This document shows positions 1-6,636 of a DNA stretch of 6,636 bases, in pieces; position 1 is the first letter of the stretch; each line of letters starts with the position of its first letter. The notes under the pieces are model-generated. The model did not search any database. It was not told the origin of the DNA and saw only the letters and a list, made by a program, of their open reading frames with translations. Made by a program: the position numbers and the translations under genes. Origin of the DNA: a virus (Duplodnaviria > Heunggongvirae > Uroviricota > Caudoviricetes); the IMG/VR virus record IMGVR_UViG_2711768007_000001. One strand, 5' to 3'.

Positions 1-450
1 TCTCACGCGCCAGTTTCAGGGCAAAACTCAGCTCACCGTCGAACACTTTCCCGCAGAAACAGGCTCTGCAGGCCCGGCGTCCTCTGCCTGTTCAGGAGCA
101 TCATTCACCACAAACTCATACATACCGGACAGCCGGTACACCACGTTTTCAGCATGAGAAATTGCCTCTGTGGGCCAGGTGGTAAGCACTTCCTGCTCAA
201 TCTGTTTAACGGCTTCATTCATGGACGGCATCTGCGTCTTCTTCGGATGGTTATGCCACAGGGACATCGCAACCACAAAAGCGCCGGTTCTGATGGCGTC
301 TTCCACAGTAAACTTCCGGTTGCTGTCTGACTCCGCCTGTTCTGCCTGCCGTTTCATCAGGTCGAGATGCTCAATACGCTGCAGGGCTGACAGTTCAGAA
401 AGCGTGACGGTCACACCGTTATGTTCAAATGATTCGGTTTTCAGGAACAT
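1..450 (-). CDS. T: Tail assembly chaperone G-T fusion made by programmed -1 ribosomal frameshift; T part truncated by window edge
   Basis: Slippery heptamer G GGA AAG on the minus strand (plus-strand CTTTCCC at 46..52) lies near the 3' end of G. After a -1 slip the frame stays open to position 1 (..VFDGELSFALKLARE..), consistent with the start of the lambda T segment. Confidence 0.65.
28..450 (-). CDS. G: Tail assembly chaperone G (lambda gpG-like)
   Basis: 140-aa ORF MFLKTESFEHNGVTVTLSELSALQRIEHLDLMKRQAEQ...PVSAGKCSTVS matching lambda gpG. ATG at 450-448 with a GGAGAG SD in the 15-nt spacer after V. Stop TGA at 28-30. Confidence 0.9.
   Translation of the reverse strand: MFLKTESFEHNGVTVTLSELSALQRIEHLDLMKRQAEQAESDSNRKFTVEDAIRTGAFVVAMSLWHNHPKKTQMPSMNEAVKQIEQEVLTTWPTEAISHAENVVYRLSGMYEFVVNDAPEQAEDAGPAEPVSAGKCSTVS
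46..52 (-). other. Programmed -1 frameshift slippery heptamer G_GGA_AAG for G/G-T
   Basis: Exact XXXYYYZ-type heptamer GGGAAAG read directly from the minus strand, in the G zero frame as GCG-GGA-AAG-TGT, eight codons before the G stop. Confidence 0.7.
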
Positions 451-465
451 CGCTGACTCTCCGGA

Positions 466-1206
466 TTAACTGGCGGTGACGTTGATTTCTGCAACCGCAG
501 CAAACTCACCATTACCAGATACGACCGGAATGTTGACCTTGCCTGCAGCAACACCTTTCACGGTGATGGTCATACCACTGACCGACACGGTGGCTTTTGT
601 TTTATCCGCAGACACCGCACGGAAGCTCTTGTCGGTTGCGCCATCCGGCTGGAATGCCACGGTCAGCGTGGTGCTCTGCCCTTTCACTACGGAAGCACTG
701 GCGGGTGTCACCGTCATGCCGGTCGTCGCCGTCACCGTGCTGCGATCTTCTGCCATCGACGGACGTCCCACATTGGTGACCTTCACCGTGCGGGTAATCA
801 CCTCCTTCGCCGTCACCGCCTTACCGATACTGCTGACCCAGCCACGGAACACATCGACCGTGCCGTTCGGGAAGCGGATTTTATAGGCACGGGTATCACC
901 TTCATTAAACCACGCCAGCAGCGCCTGCTGCCCCTGCTCTCCGGGCATCCACGCCAGCGTGAAGCTGGTATCTCCGGCAGATTTCTGCCCCTGCCCGGTC
1001 GCAGTCCAGTCTGCATCTTCATCATCGAGATAGCTGTCGTCATAGGACTCAGCGGTCAGTTCGCCGGGCGTCAGGTCTTTAACTTTTGCCAGACGCGACC
1101 AGTCAACGTCTGAAAGCGGGTTCGCATAAGGGTCACCGCTCCCCTTATAAACCCACAGGGTGGTCCCGGCACCTTTCACCGGCATTGTAGGATTTGGTAC
1201 AGGCAT
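466..1206 (-). CDS. V: Major tail tube protein V (lambda gpV-like) with C-terminal Ig-like domain
   Basis: ATG at 1206-1204 sits immediately beside the N-run. 246-aa [45 protein letters not shown]...[11 protein letters not shown] matching lambda gpV. Stop TAA at 466-468. The ORF-track extension upstream through the N-run is an artefact. Confidence 0.9.
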
Positions 1207-1517
1207 ANNNNNNNNNNNNNNNNNNNNNNNNNNNNNNNNNNNNNNNNNNNNNNNNNNNNNNNNNNNNNNNNNNNNNNNNNNNNNNNNNNNNNNNNNNNNN
1301 NNNNNNNNNNNNNNNNNNNNNNNNNNNNNNNNNNNNNNNNNNNNNNNNNNNNNNNNNNNNNNNNNNNNNNNNNNNNNNNNNNNNNNNNNNNNNNNNNNNN
1401 NNNNNNNNNNNNNNNNNNNNNNNNNNNNNNNNNNNNNNNNNNNNNNNNNNNNNNNNNNNNNNNNNNNNNNNNNNNNNNNNNNNNNNNNNNNNNNNNNNNN
1501 NNNNNNNNNNNNNNNNN

Positions 1518-1678
1518 TCCAGCTCTTCGCCCGTGTATTCAGCGCCGGTGAGATAAACGGCAATTGCCGGAAAATCTTCCTCATCAAAAACAGCGGGGCG
1601 ACCATCAAAAAGCGTCGCCCCGGTGTCATGCTTCTCCAGTGCATCCAGTACGGCTGCACGGAGTTCAGTATGTTTCAT
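1518..1678 (-). CDS. U: Tail terminator protein U (lambda gpU-like); only the 5' portion is visible, the 3' end lies inside N-run 1208..1517
   Basis: ATG at 1678-1676 overlapping the Z stop. The visible 53 aa MKHTELRAAVLDALEKHDTGATLFDGRPAVFDEEDFPAIAVYLTGAEYTGEEL match the lambda gpU N-terminus. If the protein is 131 aa as in lambda, the stop would map near 1283, but this cannot be seen. The ORF-track end at 1145 is an artefact of translating N as X. Confidence 0.8.
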
Positions 1679-2629: not shown

Positions 2630-3028
2630 TTATTGCATTCTGGCCAGGCCGCGCTCTGTCATTTCGGCTGCCACACCGGCAGAGACACGAAACGCCGTTC
2701 CCGGCAGCACAAATGCCACAGGTTTATCCCGCGTGGCGTGAAGTGCATCAGTATGCAGCGTCACCAGTGCCACGACCGTGACCAGTTCAGCCGTATCCTG
2801 AATCACGGTATCCGGCTGCGCTGATACCACCTCATTTTCATGCCCGGTCAGCACATTTTCCCGGCTGAGAGGGGTGTCCTGACCGGCAGTTTCATCCGTG
2901 TCATCAAGCTCTTCTTCCAGCTCTGCCACACGAAGCGCCAGTTCTTCTTTCGTTCCCGTCAAACTGACATCGCGGTTCAATTGCTCACCCAGCTCCTGAA
3001 GACGGGCAATCAGTTCATCTTTCGTCAT
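2630..3028 (-). CDS. FI: Head completion / DNA packaging accessory protein FI (lambda gpFI-like)
   Basis: 132-aa ORF MTKDELIARLQELGEQLNRDVSLTGTKEELALRVAELEEELDDTDETAGQDTP...ERGLARMQ matching lambda gpFI. Start ATG at 3028-3026 preceded by GGAGGAG SD. The ORF-track start 13 codons upstream is rejected because it overlaps the E-FI hairpin and has no SD. Confidence 0.9.
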   Translation of the reverse strand: MTKDELIARLQELGEQLNRDVSLTGTKEELALRVAELEEELDDTDETAGQDTPLSRENVLTGHENEVVSAQPDTVIQDTAELVTVVALVTLHTDALHATRDKPVAFVLPGTAFRVSAGVAAEMTERGLARMQ

Positions 3029-3069: not shown

Positions 3070-4095
3070 TTACGCCAGTTGAACGGACACGAACTCATCA
3101 GGATCAGCCAGCAGCATCAGCGGTGCTGACTGAATCATGGTGAACTCACGCGCCGGATCGCCGGTGGTCACCCAGTTTTTCGGGTAACGGGCAGAAGCGT
3201 TAATGCCTTCGCGCTGTGCGTCCGCATCCTGAATGCAGCCATAGGTGCGCAGACCGCGAGCCTGAGTGTTCCCCAGCACCATCGTGTTGTCCGGCAGGAA
3301 GTTCTTTTTGACGCCGTTTTCCACGTACTGTCCGGAATACACGACGATGGCCACATCGCCATACATTCCCTTATAGGACACCGCTTTGCCCAGGTCTTTT
3401 ACCGCTGTCTCCAGCTCGGAATGAGAGCCGCGACGGGTATCCAGCTTCTCCTTGACGGCTTTGAAGGAACGGAACAGCGCCCAGCCTTTCGGGTCAAACA
3501 CGATGATATTCACCACACCGCTGGCGTTCAGCGCGTAGGCTTCGATATCGTCGGTCGGGTCATACGTGGACTTGTCACGCTTGCTCCACTCCGTGACGCC
3601 GGACTGTGTGATGTTGTTCGCCGCACTGCGGCCCATATCCACCTCAACCGGATCGAAGGCTTCACCGGTCATGGTGTATTTGCCCTTGAGCACGGCAGAA
3701 ACTGCCTGCATCTCTTCGACCTGAGCAATGGCCAGCTCTTCGTCACGCATGTTCTGCATGATGATGCGACGGCGGCGGTAAGCCGGGTCCGCCAGATTCT
3801 GCGGATCTTCATCCGGCAGGCGACGCAGGGTCATCTGCGGATTCACCTCATGCTTGGGTTTGACATATCCCGGCGTAAATTCAGAGGTGGAGCCGCCACG
3901 GGAACGGATAACCTCACCGGAAACAATCGGCGAAACGTACAGCGCCATGTTTACCAGTCCCGGAATTTGTGAGAGATAGACTTTCTCCGTGGTGAAGGGA
4001 TAGCTCTCACGGAAAAAGAGACGCAGAAACAGCGGATCAAACTTAAATTTCTGCTCATTTGCCGCCAGCAGCTGGGCGGTTGTGTACATCGACAT
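3070..4095 (-). CDS. E: Major capsid protein (lambda gpE-like, HK97 fold)
   Basis: 341-aa ORF MSMYTTAQLLAANEQKFKFDPLFLRLFFRESYPFTTEKVYLSQIPGLVNMALYVSPIVSGEV...DEFVSVQLA matching lambda gpE. True start ATG at 4095-4093; the ORF-track N-terminal extension runs into the intergenic region and is rejected. Stop TAA at 3070-3072. Confidence 0.95.
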   Translation of the reverse strand: MSMYTTAQLLAANEQKFKFDPLFLRLFFRESYPFTTEKVYLSQIPGLVNMALYVSPIVSGEVIRSRGGSTSEFTPGYVKPKHEVNPQMTLRRLPDEDPQNLADPAYRRRRIIMQNMRDEELAIAQVEEMQAVSAVLKGKYTMTGEAFDPVEVDMGRSAANNITQSGVTEWSKRDKSTYDPTDDIEAYALNASGVVNIIVFDPKGWALFRSFKAVKEKLDTRRGSHSELETAVKDLGKAVSYKGMYGDVAIVVYSGQYVENGVKKNFLPDNTMVLGNTQARGLRTYGCIQDADAQREGINASARYPKNWVTTGDPAREFTMIQSAPLMLLADPDEFVSVQLA

Positions 4096-4150: not shown

Positions 4151-4483
4151 TTAAACGATGCTGATTGCCGTTCCGGCAAACACGGTCCGTTTTTTCGTCT
4201 CGTCGCTGGCAGCCTCCGGCCAGAGCACATCCTCATAACGGAACGTGCCGGACTTGTAGAACGTCAGTGTGGTGCTGGTCTGGTCAGCAGCAACCGCAAG
4301 AATGCCAACGGCAGCACCGTCGGTGGTGCCATCCCACGCAACCAGCTTACGGGTGGAGGTGTCCAGCATCAGCGGGGTCATTGCAGGCGCTTTCGCACTC
4401 AATCCGCCGGGCGCGGTTGCGGTATGAGCCGGGTCACTATTGCCCAGCGGCTGGTAATGGGTAAAGGTTTCTTTGCTCGTCAT
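4151..4483 (-). CDS. D: Head decoration protein (lambda gpD-like)
   Basis: 110-aa [30 protein letters not shown]...FAGTAISIV matching lambda gpD. Start ATG at 4483-4481 (the ORF-track start two codons upstream is rejected), stop TAA at 4151-4153. 9-nt spacer from the C stop, as in lambda. Confidence 0.93.
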
Positions 4484-4492
4484 AAACATCCC

Positions 4493-4888
4493 TTACACTG
4501 GTGTGTTCAGCAAATCGTTAACGGCATCAGATGCCGGGTTACCTGCAGCCAGCGGTGCCGGTGCCCCCTGCATCAGACGATCCAGCGCAGTGTCACTGCG
4601 CGTCTGTGCACTCTGTGGTGCTGCGGCCAGAATACGGCGGGCCGTTTCCACGGTCATACCGGGGGTTTCGGCCAGCACGCGTGCCTGTTCTTCGCGTCCG
4701 TGAGCCTCCTCACAGTTGAGGATCCCCATAATGCGACTGTTTTCTGCCGCAACCGCTGCGGTGATCTGCGCGTTCACGTCCGGCTGCGCCGCGCTGGCGT
4801 TCTCGCCCTCCGTCGCTTGCACCACGCCAGTAACGTCAGCCTGCGAAGCAGTGGCTGAAACAGTTGTTGATTGAGTCTCTTTGGTCAT
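4493..4888 (-). CDS. Nu3: Capsid scaffolding protein Nu3, nested in-frame in the 3' part of C (internal start)
   Basis: Internal ATG at 4888-4886 (MTKETQSTTVSATASQ...), in frame with C and sharing its stop. It is preceded on the minus strand by a strong Shine-Dalgarno sequence (TCAGGAGGGCGA then ATG). 131 aa, Ala/Gln-rich and low-complexity, as expected for a disordered scaffold. An alternative in-frame ATG at 5098 (MDATRRMF...) has no visible SD. Confidence 0.6.
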   Translation of the reverse strand: MTKETQSTTVSATASQADVTGVVQATEGENASAAQPDVNAQITAAVAAENSRIMGILNCEEAHGREEQARVLAETPGMTVETARRILAAAPQSAQTRSDTALDRLMQGAPAPLAAGNPASDAVNDLLNTPV

Positions 4889-5637
4889 TCGCCCTCCTGA
4901 GAGACGGGATTTACGTGCATCCAGTGCATCACGCATGACGGTGATCGCATCGGTACTGTTAACAAGTTCATCAGCCAGTCCGGCATCAATGGCCTCCTGA
5001 CCGCTGTACACTGCAGCCTCGGTATCCAGCACAGCCTGCACGGACAGGCCGGTATATGCCGACACCTTCTGTGCAAACATCCGGCGGGTTGCATCCATCC
5101 GGGACTGCAATGTTTCCCGGACATCATCCGGTAGATGGCTGTAGGGGTTGCCATCCACCTTATGGCTGCCGCTGTAAATCAGCGTGATTTCCACGCCCTG
5201 TTTCTCCAGTGCAGCGCCGTAATTACTGTGAGCCATCATGACGCCGATGGAGCCTGTCCGGGCGGTCTGCGTGACCAGACGCCGGGAGGCGGCACTGGNN
5301 NNNNNNNNNNNNNNNNNNNNNNNNNNNNNNNNNNNNNNNNNNNNNNNNNNNNNNNNNNNNNNNNNNNNNNNNNNNNNNNNNNNNNNNNNNNNNNNNNNNN
5401 NNNNNNNNNNNNNNNNNNNNNNNNNNNNNNNNNNNNNNNNNNNNNNNNNNNNNNNNNNNNNNNNNNNNNNNNNNNNNNNNNNNNNNNNNNNNNNNNNNNN
5501 NNNNNNNNNNNNNNNNNNNNNNNAAGCTGGCCTGCAAGCGCACAAAAGAAAACCCGCGCATAGGCGGGTTCAAGCATCAGCGGCTCATTAAAAGCCATGC
5601 TGGCAATATGCGGGAGATTACGCAGCTCTGCTGTCAC
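4493..5637 (-). CDS. C: Prohead protease / minor capsid protein (lambda gpC-like, S49/ClpP-type serine protease), interrupted by N-run 5299..5523
   Basis: N-terminal 38 aa (VTAELRNLPHIASMAFNEPLMLEPAYARVFFCALAGQL, GTG start at 5637-5635) are visible upstream of the N-run. C-terminal 267 aa (SAASRRLVTQTARTGSIGVMM...NDLLNTPV) are visible downstream, with stop at 4493-4495. Both match lambda gpC as I recall it. The start overlaps the end of B by 20 nt, as in lambda. The two visible parts are in different frames across the N-run. Confidence 0.8.
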
Positions 5638-6636
5638 TCTTCTCCTCCTCTGTTGATTGTCGCAGCCCGGATTCAAATGCCGCAGCCGCCCAGGCGGGCG
5701 GTTTAAGACCAGCTGCGCGGCGCTCCATCGTTTCACGGACCTGCTGGGCAAAAATTTCCTGATAGTCGTCACCGCGTTTCGCGCACTCTTTCTCGTAGGT
5801 GCTCAGTCCGGCTTCTATCAGCATCACCGCTTCCTGAACTTCTTTCAGACCATCGATGGCCATACGACCGGAGCCTATCCAGTCGCAGTTCCCCCAGGCA
5901 CTGCGGGCTTCCTGAAAGCTGAAGCGCGCTTTTGAAGGTAACGTCACCACGCGGCGAACGATGGCCTCTTCCAGCCAGCACAGAAACATCTGGCTCGCCT
6001 GACGGGATGCGACGAATTTTCGCCGCCCCATAAAGTACGCCCACGACTCGTTCGCACTGGCCCGTGCCGTGGAGTAGCTCATCTGGGCGTAATTCCGGGA
6101 AAGTTGCTCATACGAGACACCCAGCCCGGCAGCGATATACCGCAACAGTGACTGCTCAAACACGGAGTAGCCGTTATCCGTGTCCTGAGCCGTCTGCAGG
6201 TTCAGTGAGTCCCCCGGCATCAGGTGCGGCACTTTTGCGCCTCCCAGACGGACCGGTGCTGCGGCGTAATACGCGGCAATTTCACCAATCCAGCCCGTCA
6301 GCCTTTCCCGCTGCTCCTTACTGTTCGCGCCCAGAATAAAATCCATCGCTGACTGCGTATCCAGCTCACTTTCAATGGTGGCGGCATACATCGCCTTCAC
6401 AATGGCGCTCTGCAGCTGCGTGTTCTGCAGCGTGTCGAGCATCTTCATCTGCTCCATTACGCTGTAAAACACATTTGCACCGCGGGTCTGCCCGTCCTCC
6501 ACGGGTTCAAAAACGTGAATGAACGAGGCGCGCCCGCCGGGTAACTCACGGGGTATCCATGTCCATTTCTGCGGCATCCAGCCAGGATAGCCGTCCTCGC
6601 TGACGTAATATCCCAGCGCCGCACCGCTGTCATTAA
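5618..6636 (-). CDS. B: Portal protein (lambda gpB-like), 5'-truncated by window edge
   Basis: Minus-strand ORF; translation (..NDSGAALGYYVSEDGYPGWMPQKWTWIPRELPGG...EEEKSDSRAA) matches my recollection of the lambda gpB C-terminal part. The frame stays open upstream of the ORF-track Met to position 6636, so the N-terminus lies outside the window. Stop codon at 5618-5620. Confidence 0.9.
   Translation of the reverse strand, partial: NDSGAALGYYVSEDGYPGWMPQKWTWIPRELPGGRASFIHVFEPVEDGQTRGANVFYSVMEQMKMLDTLQNTQLQSAIVKAMYAATIESELDTQSAMDFILGANSKEQRERLTGWIGEIAAYYAAAPVRLGGAKVPHLMPGDSLNLQTAQDTDNGYSVFEQSLLRYIAAGLGVSYEQLSRNYAQMSYSTARASANESWAYFMGRRKFVASRQASQMFLCWLEEAIVRRVVTLPSKARFSFQEARSAWGNCDWIGSGRMAIDGLKEVQEAVMLIEAGLSTYEKECAKRGDDYQEIFAQQVRETMERRAAGLKPPAWAAAAFESGLRQSTEEEKSDSRAA

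What the first reader, a model, noticed from the sequence alone, without database searches (positions are those of the whole stretch)
1..60. G/G-T programmed -1 frameshift site is intact
The minus strand carries the slippery heptamer G GGA AAG (plus-strand CTTTCCC at 46..52) eight codons before the G stop, and the -1 frame stays open to the window edge. This is the conserved tail assembly chaperone frameshift of lambda-like phages, which sets a low ratio of G-T to G. It is a recoding event that standard ORF callers miss, and the ORF track shows only G.
Basis: partly seen in the sequence, partly recalled or inferred. Interest (0 to 1): 0.5.

Follow-up and report, generated by a model that had tools for sequence, protein, structure and literature searches.

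The report
Lambda G/G-T tail chaperone frameshift site
This is the well-known programmed -1 ribosomal frameshift site at the end of phage lambda's tail-assembly chaperone gene G, sitting in a lambda-like prophage copy and base-for-base identical to lambda's own site, so it is real but ordinary.

Summary
On the minus strand, G GGA AAG lies at 52..46, in X XXY YYZ register with gene G (28..450, 140 aa). The -1 frame reads GKVFDGELSFALKLARE with no stop to the window edge.

On its own this is weak. The heptamer occurs 3 times in the window (0.71 expected), and 65% of 15-codon stretches in the window have no stop. Homology settles it.
- Window 1-69 is 100% identical to phage lambda, where this site was shown experimentally to give about 4% gpG-T.
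- G matches TIGR01674 and PF06894.
- The window is the lambda late operon (B, C/Nu3, D, E, FI, FII, Z, U, V, G) on the minus strand.

A locus with 1 mismatch in about 6.1 kb (L004), and five others encoding the identical G, all continue into a 279-aa G-T. That product differs from lambda gpGT at 6 residues, and its stop overlaps the start of the tape-measure gene. The stated refutation test therefore fails in every near-identical relative.

Across 235 family loci, 228 keep an in-register A AAG slip site down to about 30% G-T identity.

A predicted RNA structure 7 nt downstream of the heptamer is suggestive but unproven.

Verdict: already known, low interest.

The parts
28..450 (-). Gene G, the tail assembly chaperone gpG. 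It is 140 aa, with ATG at 450..448 and TGA stop at 30..28. This is the zero-frame product.
   Evidence: ORF and translation. PF06894 Phage_TAC_2 at E=5e-60. TIGR01674 phage_lambda_G equivalog at 216 bits. It differs from lambda gpG at 5 residues.
459..462 (-). GGAG Shine-Dalgarno sequence of G, 9-12 nt upstream of the ATG.
   Evidence: Read directly from the sequence. Phage 434 annotates a ribosome_binding_site at the same position.
46..52 (-). Slippery heptamer G GGA AAG, in X XXY YYZ register. tRNA-Gly in the P site and tRNA-Lys in the A site re-pair with GGG AAA after a -1 slip.
   Evidence: It is identical to lambda's site at the same G coordinate, nt 399-405. Lambda's slip sequence is given as GGGAAAG in PMC3296357 (Table 1) and as G_GGA_AAG in PMC7618472.
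1..46 (-). Start of the T segment, read in the -1 frame after G46 is re-read: VFDGELSFALKLARE. It runs off the window edge.
   Evidence: It is identical to the lambda, 434 and NCTC9082 G-T junctions. In L004 it continues to a 279-aa G-T that matches TIGR01715 phage_lam_T from residue 140 and PF06223.
28..30 (-). G stop codon TGA. It is reached by the roughly 96% of ribosomes that do not shift and bypassed by those that do.
   Evidence: The percentage is from PMC3296357, measured for lambda.
31..38 (-). Tentative: 5' arm of the outer helix of a predicted downstream RNA structure. It starts 8 nt after the heptamer. Its 3' arm lies outside the window.
   Evidence: Fold of L004:7406-7495 gives -40.6 kcal/mol and z=-3.05. 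The helix is 93% paired across 55 distinct family sequences, but the phylogeny-robust measures are not significant. Coordinates were mapped.
1..12 (-). Tentative: 5' arm of the inner helix of the same predicted structure. Its 3' arm lies outside the window.
466..1206 (-). Gene V, the major tail tube protein (246 aa), immediately upstream of G. In lambda it is the binding partner of the T domain. Its start abuts the N-masked run at 1208-1517.
   Evidence: PF16461 Phage_TTP_12 at E=1.4e-70 plus a Big_2 domain. Synteny with lambda and 434. The binding role is from PMC5009743.

Best explanation
This is the programmed -1 ribosomal frameshift site of the lambda-type tail assembly chaperone genes G and T, in a lambda-like prophage or phage genome read on the minus strand.

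Most ribosomes translating G read GCG GGA AAG and continue through five more codons to the TGA at 30..28. They make the 140-aa gpG.

A small fraction behaves differently (about 4% in lambda). With tRNA-Gly on GGA in the P site and tRNA-Lys (mnm5s2UUU) on AAG in the A site, these ribosomes slip back one base to GGG AAA. They then continue in the -1 frame (VFDGELSFALKLARE...), bypass the G stop, and make a G-T fusion of about 279 aa.

The G portions coat the tape-measure protein gpH. The T portion recruits the major tail protein gpV, so the fixed low G-T:G ratio controls tail-tube assembly. Neither protein ends up in the virion.

Shown here: the sequence, its register, its identity to lambda's site, family membership of G, synteny, and continuation into T and H in near-identical loci.

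Inferred from lambda experiments: that frameshifting occurs, its rate, and the chaperone roles.
For: - Heptamer in register, with the -1 frame open to the window edge.
- Window 1-69 is 100% identical to lambda, 434 and NCTC9082, and the heptamer sits at the same G coordinate, 399.
- G matches TIGR01674 and PF06894.
- The operon order B-C/Nu3-D-E-FI-FII-Z-U-V-G matches lambda.
- Phage 434 carries a joined G-T frameshift CDS here, and N15 annotates the slippery sequence at the homologous position.
- The exact G protein occurs in thousands of assemblies. All six loci read have T (PF06223) and then a tape-measure gene.
- L004 matches the window with 1 mismatch in about 6.1 kb.
- In L001-L009 the fusion is 279 aa, and its TGA overlaps the ATG of H.
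- The L004 G-T matches TIGR01674 plus TIGR01715, and its H matches TIGR01541, PF06791 and PF09718.
- The site is conserved. 76 of 80 close viral contigs have GGGAAAG, G of 140 aa and G-T of 279 aa.
- 228 of 235 family loci keep an in-register A AAG site 2 or 6 codons before the G stop. It opens into a T segment even at about 30% G-T identity.
- Literature: PMC3296357, PMC5009743, PMC7618472 and PMC6924986.
Against: - Nothing in the window contradicts this reading.
- Only 15 codons of T are in the window, and H is absent, so completeness in this exact source is inferred.
- Within the window alone, the heptamer count and the open frame are not beyond chance.
- Four of the six exact-G loci have the tape-measure gene called in pieces. 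Some carriers may therefore be defective prophages in which the site is intact but of no consequence.
- No expression or protein data exist for this element.
Confidence: 0.95

Rival explanations
1. The site is an intact relic in a defective prophage. It is sequence-competent, but the element no longer builds tails, for example because the tape-measure gene or another late gene is broken. The frameshift would then have no biological consequence in this host.
For: - Among the six loci encoding the identical G, H is split in L005, L006, L008 and L009.
- A Shigella flexneri relative has G truncated at 29 aa.
- 4 of 80 close viral contigs have a disrupted G.
- Lambda-like G-V segments occur in 4083 of 5426 complete E. 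coli genomes, often in several copies. Many of these are likely cryptic.
Against: - Every unmasked late gene in the window is full length and matches its family end to end.
- The closest locus, L004 (1 mismatch), has an intact 853-aa H and intact neighbours.
- L005 and L006 also show many other split genes, which looks like assembly indel error rather than decay.
- This rival does not contradict the identity of the site. It concerns only whether the site is in current use.
Confidence: 0.2
2. T is made independently rather than by frameshifting. Translation would start at the GTG at 46..44, as the separate 'T' CDS in RefSeq lambda and PGAP annotation implies. The heptamer would then be incidental.
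For: NC_001416 and PGAP annotate T as its own CDS beginning exactly at that GTG. GTG is a legal start codon.
Against: - There is no Shine-Dalgarno-like motif in the 25 nt upstream of the heptamer.
- In distant relatives the codon at that position is GCC, GCA or GTC, which are mostly not start codons, yet the A AAG slip site is kept.
- Reviews and experiments describe T sequences as expressed in the G-T fusion (PMC5009743, PMC3296357).
- Curated records join G and T.
Confidence: 0.03
3. The heptamer and the short open -1 frame are a chance coincidence with no recoding role.
For: GGGAAAG occurs three times in the window. 65% of random 15-codon stretches here have no stop.
Against: - Only this copy is in register.
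- It is identical in sequence and position to lambda's experimentally defined site.
- 228 of 235 family loci keep a slip site in the same place while the flanking codons diverge.
Confidence: 0.01

Closest known systems
Bacteriophage lambda genes G and T: gpG/gpGT -1 programmed frameshift (Levin, Hendrix & Casjens 1993; Xu, Hendrix & Duda 2004, 2013, 2014)
   Same: - The same heptamer, G GGA AAG, at the same G coordinate (nt 399-405).
- The window's last 69 nt are identical to lambda.
- G is 140 aa in both, and the junction ...VSAGK|VFDGELSFALKLARE is the same.
- The gene order V-G-T-H is the same.
   Different: - G has 5 amino-acid substitutions against lambda gpG. The 279-aa G-T of the near-identical locus L004 has 6.
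- The window ends 45 nt after the heptamer.
- The window is not lambda itself. The V-G segment is 96.7% identical to lambda, 98.8% to phage 434 and 99.4% to the best E. coli prophage.
Escherichia phage 434 (OL657226) tape measure chaperone G and G-T
   Same: It is the best phage match at 98.8% over V-G. It has the same heptamer and a 279-aa fusion, explicitly annotated as a two-piece joined CDS.
   Different: There are 8 nucleotide differences within G, none of them in the last 69 nt.
Phage N15 gp14/gp15 and the HK225, Fels-1 and mEp460 groups
   Same: They are homologous G and T proteins (30-50% G-T identity) with a -1 slip at the same place. The T segment has the same LAREfGRPDWRaML start and ends at the tape-measure gene.
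   Different: - The heptamer is G GAA AAG, described as less slippery in vitro in PMC6924986. In phage 1720a-02 it is A AAA AAG.
- In some the AAG is 2 rather than 6 codons before the G stop.
- The T segment is shorter, 113-117 aa.
E. coli dnaX gamma/tau -1 frameshift
   Same: It uses the same host mechanism: a tandem -1 slip with tRNA-Lys on A AAG in the A site. This comparison is from established knowledge, and PMC6924986 discusses both heptamers.
   Different: - dnaX uses A AAA AAG with an upstream SD-like element and a strong downstream stem-loop. It shifts at roughly 50% and gives a shorter product.
- Here there is no SD-like element upstream, any downstream structure is unproven, the rate is low, and the product is longer.

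Membership tests
Lambda-type tail assembly chaperone G/G-T with -1 programmed frameshift | The upstream ORF is a gpG homologue. | tested here: met
   TIGR01674 equivalog at 216.4 bits against a 74.45 cut-off. PF06894 at E=5e-60 covering the full profile. 96.4% identical to lambda gpG.
Lambda-type tail assembly chaperone G/G-T with -1 programmed frameshift | A slippery heptamer X XXY YYZ, in zero-frame register, lies a few codons before the G stop. | tested here: met
   G GGA AAG at 52..46, register 0, with AAG 6 codons before the TGA. It is the same site as in lambda.
Lambda-type tail assembly chaperone G/G-T with -1 programmed frameshift | The -1 frame overlaps the end of G and continues into a T domain (TIGR01715 / PF06223). 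| tested here: inconclusive
   In the window only 15 post-slip codons exist. They are open and identical to lambda's T start. In L004, which has 1 mismatch to the window, the frame runs 144 codons and matches TIGR01715 (186 bits) and PF06223. The feature is met in the relatives but is not directly observable for this source.
Lambda-type tail assembly chaperone G/G-T with -1 programmed frameshift | The genes lie between the major tail protein gene and the tape-measure gene. | tested here: inconclusive
   The upstream side is met in the window: V at 466..1206 matches PF16461. The downstream tape-measure gene lies beyond the window. It is present in all six exact-G loci and in 434, lambda and NCTC9082, with its ATG overlapping the T stop.
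Lambda-type tail assembly chaperone G/G-T with -1 programmed frameshift | A G-T fusion protein is actually made at a low fixed ratio (about 1:30), and both products are needed for tail assembly. | not testable with these tools
   This was shown for lambda (Levin 1993 and Xu 2013, as cited in PMC5009743, PMC3296357 and PMC7618472). It is inferred here from identity of the site and its 45-nt downstream context.
Stimulator-dependent -1 PRF signals (dnaX / IS-type: heptamer plus spacer plus downstream hairpin or pseudoknot) | A conserved downstream RNA structure lies 5-9 nt from the heptamer and is supported by covariation. | tested here: inconclusive
   A predicted structure lies 7 nt downstream with z=-3.05. 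It is 89% paired across 55 sequences against 22-44% in the slid controls, but the compensatory-pair count (69/500) and pair-type count (239/500) are not above shuffles. The region also encodes the conserved LAREfGRPDWRaML peptide.

The most novel reading that the evidence does not exclude
The G-T frameshift of the lambda, N15 and Fels-1 family may not be stimulator-free. It could be tuned by a conserved two-helix RNA structure that begins 8 nt after the heptamer (L004 7413-7483). The 5' arms are at window 38-31 and 12-1, and the 3' arms lie beyond the window edge. This structure is maintained alongside the conserved N-terminus of T, with compensatory changes at wobble positions. Examples are G-C to A-U at columns 16/84 and G-C to C-G at columns 54/63.
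Probability: 0.15. Interest if true: 0.3.

Novelty: already known. Interest (0 to 1): 0.1.

Why it matters
The G/G-T frameshift is a textbook recoding event. It fixes the stoichiometry of two tail-assembly chaperones and is conserved across long-tailed phages.

Recognising it here matters only for annotation. Automatic pipelines, including RefSeq lambda and PGAP prophage calls, list T as a separate ORF starting inside the slip site instead of joining G and T. The true 279-aa product is therefore missing from many records.

This finding adds no new biology. It does show that the first-stage reader can recognise a real recoding site from raw sequence.

Tried and rejected
- **Chance test of the heptamer in the window.** The count of 3 against 0.71 expected is not decisive by itself. 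The other two copies are out of register and were dismissed.
- **Upstream SD-like stimulator, as in dnaX.** None is present in the 25 nt upstream.
- **Upstream hairpin that includes the GGG of the heptamer.** It is present in the lambda group, but the upstream codons are completely different in the E. albertii and N15 groups. It is not conserved and I did not pursue it.
- **Downstream RNA structure.** I folded it, then tested it on 9 sequences and on 55 distinct sequences. The fold is strongly conserved, but the phylogeny-robust covariation measures are not significant and coding constraint confounds the result. It stays a hypothesis.
- **Strict X XXY YYZ scan of distant relatives.** It missed the annotated N15 site G GAA AAG. 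Relaxing the rule to an in-register A AAG recovered all of them.
- **Primary papers.** Levin 1993, Xu 2004 and Xu 2013 are not held in the library. Statements about lambda experiments therefore rest on reviews and on Maynard 2012. The body text of Maynard 2012 misprints the heptamer as GGGTTTG, while its Table 1 gives GGGAAAG.
- **Solved structures.** The PDB sequence search for G-T found none.
- **Source organism.** The genome-contig scan, intended to name the host, mostly returned lambda contamination in unrelated assemblies. The best complete E. coli genome is only 99.4% identical over V-G.

Full report
**What is in the sequence.** The plus strand at 46..52 reads CTTTCCC, so the minus strand at 52..46 reads GGGAAAG. 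Gene G is the minus-strand ORF 28..450, 140 aa. It ends ...GCG GGA AAG TGT TCG ACG GTG AGC TGA. The heptamer is therefore in X XXY YYZ register with G. AAG is six codons before the stop, and GCG, the codon carrying the first G of the heptamer, is eight codons before it. Read from the first G of the heptamer, the -1 frame gives GKVFDGELSFALKLARE with no stop to window position 1.

**Is it more than chance?** Not from the window alone.
- GGGAAAG occurs three times on both strands against 0.71 expected, and 11 of 200 shuffles reach three or more.
- 64.6% of all 15-codon stretches in this window have no stop.
- The other two copies, 6097-6103 (+) and 6303-6309 (-, inside the portal gene), are out of register.

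The case rests on context and homology.

**Context.** The window is a lambda-type late operon on the minus strand:

| Gene | Window coordinates | Product |
|---|---|---|
| B | 5618 to beyond 6634 | portal |
| C/Nu3 | about 4493-5770, partly N-masked | protease/scaffold |
| D | 4151-4483 | head decoration |
| E | 3070-4095 | major capsid |
| FI | 2630-3028 | DNA packaging |
| FII | 2265-2618 | head-tail joining |
| Z | 1675-2253 | tail completion |
| U | ends at 1678, mostly N-masked | tail terminator |
| V | 466-1206 | major tail tube |
| G | 28-450 | tail assembly chaperone |

Each unmasked protein matches its Pfam family essentially end to end. G matches PF06894 (E=5e-60) and the NCBIfam equivalog TIGR01674 phage_lambda_G (216 bits, cut-off 74). 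Two N runs, 1208-1517 and 5299-5523, are masking. They create artefactual long ORFs in the ORF list.

**Relatives.**
- The V-G segment is 98.8% identical to phage 434, and 83 phage records cover at least 80% of it.
- It has matches in 4083 of 5426 complete E. coli genomes, the best at 99.4%.
- Phage 434 annotates a two-piece joined CDS, 'tape measure protein chaperone... GT frameshift product', across this site, followed by the tape-measure gene.
- Lambda (NC_001416) and PGAP-annotated prophages list G and T as separate CDSs, with T starting at the GTG inside the slip site.
- Ungapped comparison shows 12 nucleotide differences from lambda within G, all upstream of G nt 382. Window 1-69, which holds the heptamer and everything after it, is identical to lambda, 434 and NCTC9082. 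The heptamer is at G nt 399 in all of them.

The exact 140-aa G protein is on record in thousands of assemblies. In the six loci returned, G is followed by a PF06223 (T) gene and a tape-measure gene. L004 (CP104423.1) matches the window with one mismatch over about 6.1 kb of unmasked sequence.

In L004-L009, as in lambda, 434 and NCTC9082, slipping at the heptamer gives a 279-aa fusion. Its TGA overlaps the ATG of the next gene. In L004 and L007 that gene is an intact 853-aa protein matching TIGR01541, PF06791 and PF09718. The L004 G-T differs from lambda gpGT at 6 residues and matches TIGR01674 plus TIGR01715 (phage_lam_T, from residue 140). So neither an early stop nor a missing tape-measure gene is seen in any near-identical relative.

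In L005, L006, L008 and L009 the tape-measure gene is split. L005 and L006 also have several other split genes, which suggests assembly indel errors. Even so, some carriers may be defective prophages.

**Conservation.**
- Among 80 close viral contigs, 76 have GGGAAAG, G of 140 aa and G-T of 279 aa. The other four have a disrupted G.
- In an E. albertii prophage with G 67% identical, the codons just upstream have diverged completely, yet TCTGCGGGAAAGT is kept.
- In more distant homologues (N15, HK225, 1720a-02, Klebsiella Kp4865-4, mEp460, Fels-1; G-T identity 50% down to 30%), the heptamer is G GAA AAG or A AAA AAG. It always has an in-register A AAG, 2 or 6 codons before the G stop.
- In all of these the -1 frame opens into a T segment starting ...ELxFxxKLAREfGRPDWRaML and ending at the tape-measure gene. 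N15's record annotates the heptamer as 'slippery sequence for -1 translational frameshift' at the homologous coordinate.
- Pooling 235 loci, 228 have such a site: GGAAAAG 142, GGGAAAG 83, and one each of GGCAAAG, AGAAAAG and AAAAAAG.

**Mechanism.** This part rests on established knowledge, and only the sequence features are shown here.
- In lambda, about 96% of ribosomes stay in frame and make gpG. About 4% slip -1 at GGGAAAG, which encodes Gly-Lys in both frames, and make gpGT (PMC3296357).
- The roughly 30:1 ratio is important for tail assembly. [quoted passage not shown] Neither is in the virion (PMC5009743).
- The rate depends on thiolation of tRNA-Lys U34 (PMC3296357, PMC7618472).
- G GGA AAG is among the most shift-prone heptamers in E. 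coli, and G GAA AAG is less so (PMC5009743, PMC6924986).
- A run of three A residues is too short for transcriptional slippage (established knowledge).

Because the window's site and its 45-nt downstream context are identical to lambda's, the same behaviour is the reasonable inference.

**Stimulators.** There is no SD-like motif in the 25 nt upstream. Downstream, using L004 to extend past the window edge, the 90 nt after the heptamer fold to -40.6 kcal/mol with z=-3.05 against shuffles. An outer helix starts 8 nt after the site.

The evidence for this structure is mixed.
- Across nine diverse relatives RNAalifold recovers two nested helices with five compensatory pairs.
- Across 55 distinct sequences the structure is 89% paired against 22-44% when partners are slid. 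It has six compensatory pairs, several at wobble positions.
- However, the two phylogeny-robust measures are not above shuffles (69/500 and 239/500).
- The structure was derived from a member of the set, and the region encodes a highly conserved peptide.

I therefore treat this as suggestive only. The 3' arms lie outside the window. I could not read Levin et al. 1993 to see what was tested for 3' sequences.

**Verdict.** This is the known lambda G/G-T frameshift in a lambdoid prophage or phage copy. It is already known and of low interest beyond correct annotation. No solved structure of G or G-T was found by sequence search.

Noticed in passing
window 1208-1517 and 5299-5523: There are two runs of N, 310 and 225 bases, masking most of U and part of C/Nu3. 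The mechanical ORF list reports long artefactual ORFs running through them, for example 466..1659 and 4493..5545.
   Followed up: partly
L010-L022, L025, L027-L029, L031-L034 (genome-contig scan): True lambda gpG sequence sits on short, low-coverage contigs (coverage about 1) in assemblies of unrelated taxa, including Neobacillus, Kitasatospora, Shewanella, Chromatium, Pseudoxanthomonas, Paenibacillus and Bradyrhizobium. This almost certainly reflects laboratory lambda DNA contaminating public assemblies.
   Followed up: no
L004:7413-7483; 5' arms at window 38-31 and 12-1: A predicted two-helix RNA structure starts 8 nt after the heptamer (z=-3.05). It is 89% paired across 55 family sequences, with some wobble-position compensatory changes, but it is not significant on the phylogeny-robust measures.
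   Followed up: yes
window 53-74 (minus strand), overlapping the GGG at 52-50: A 9-bp hairpin (CCUGCAGAG / UUCUGCGGG) lies immediately upstream, and its 3' arm includes the first three bases of the slippery heptamer. It is present in lambda-group sequences, but the upstream codons are not conserved in the E. albertii or N15 groups.
   Followed up: partly
L005, L006, L008, L009 (loci encoding the identical G): The tape-measure gene downstream of T is called in two or three pieces. L005 and L006 also have other split late genes. The cause is either assembly indel error or decaying prophages that carry an intact frameshift site.
   Followed up: partly
L002 5105-5539; L003 1216-1650 (equivalent to the window from 46 leftwards): RefSeq lambda and PGAP annotate T as an independent CDS starting at the GTG inside the slip site rather than as a joined G-T product. 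Phage 434 and N15 records annotate the frameshift explicitly.
   Followed up: yes
L230 (IMGVR_UViG_3300048929_000058) and L236: There are two rare heptamer variants in the N15 clade, G GCA AAG and A GAA AAG. The first would not allow P-site re-pairing, leaving only the A AAG tetramer slip.
   Followed up: no
L030 (Shigella flexneri SFBU0723, CP182557.1): The G homologue is truncated at 29 aa by a frame disruption, which marks a decayed lambdoid prophage.
   Followed up: no
window about 4493-5770 (minus strand): C and Nu3 form a nested pair. The 434 annotation has the scaffold Nu3 starting at an internal in-frame start within the protease gene C. This is a second case in the window of two products from one reading frame, and it is partly hidden by the N mask.
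   Followed up: no
PMC3296357 main text: The body text of Maynard et al. 2012 gives the lambda slippery sequence as GGGTTTG (GGT-TTG / GGG-TTT), while its Table 1 gives the correct GGGAAAG. This is a misprint that could mislead text mining.
   Followed up: yes
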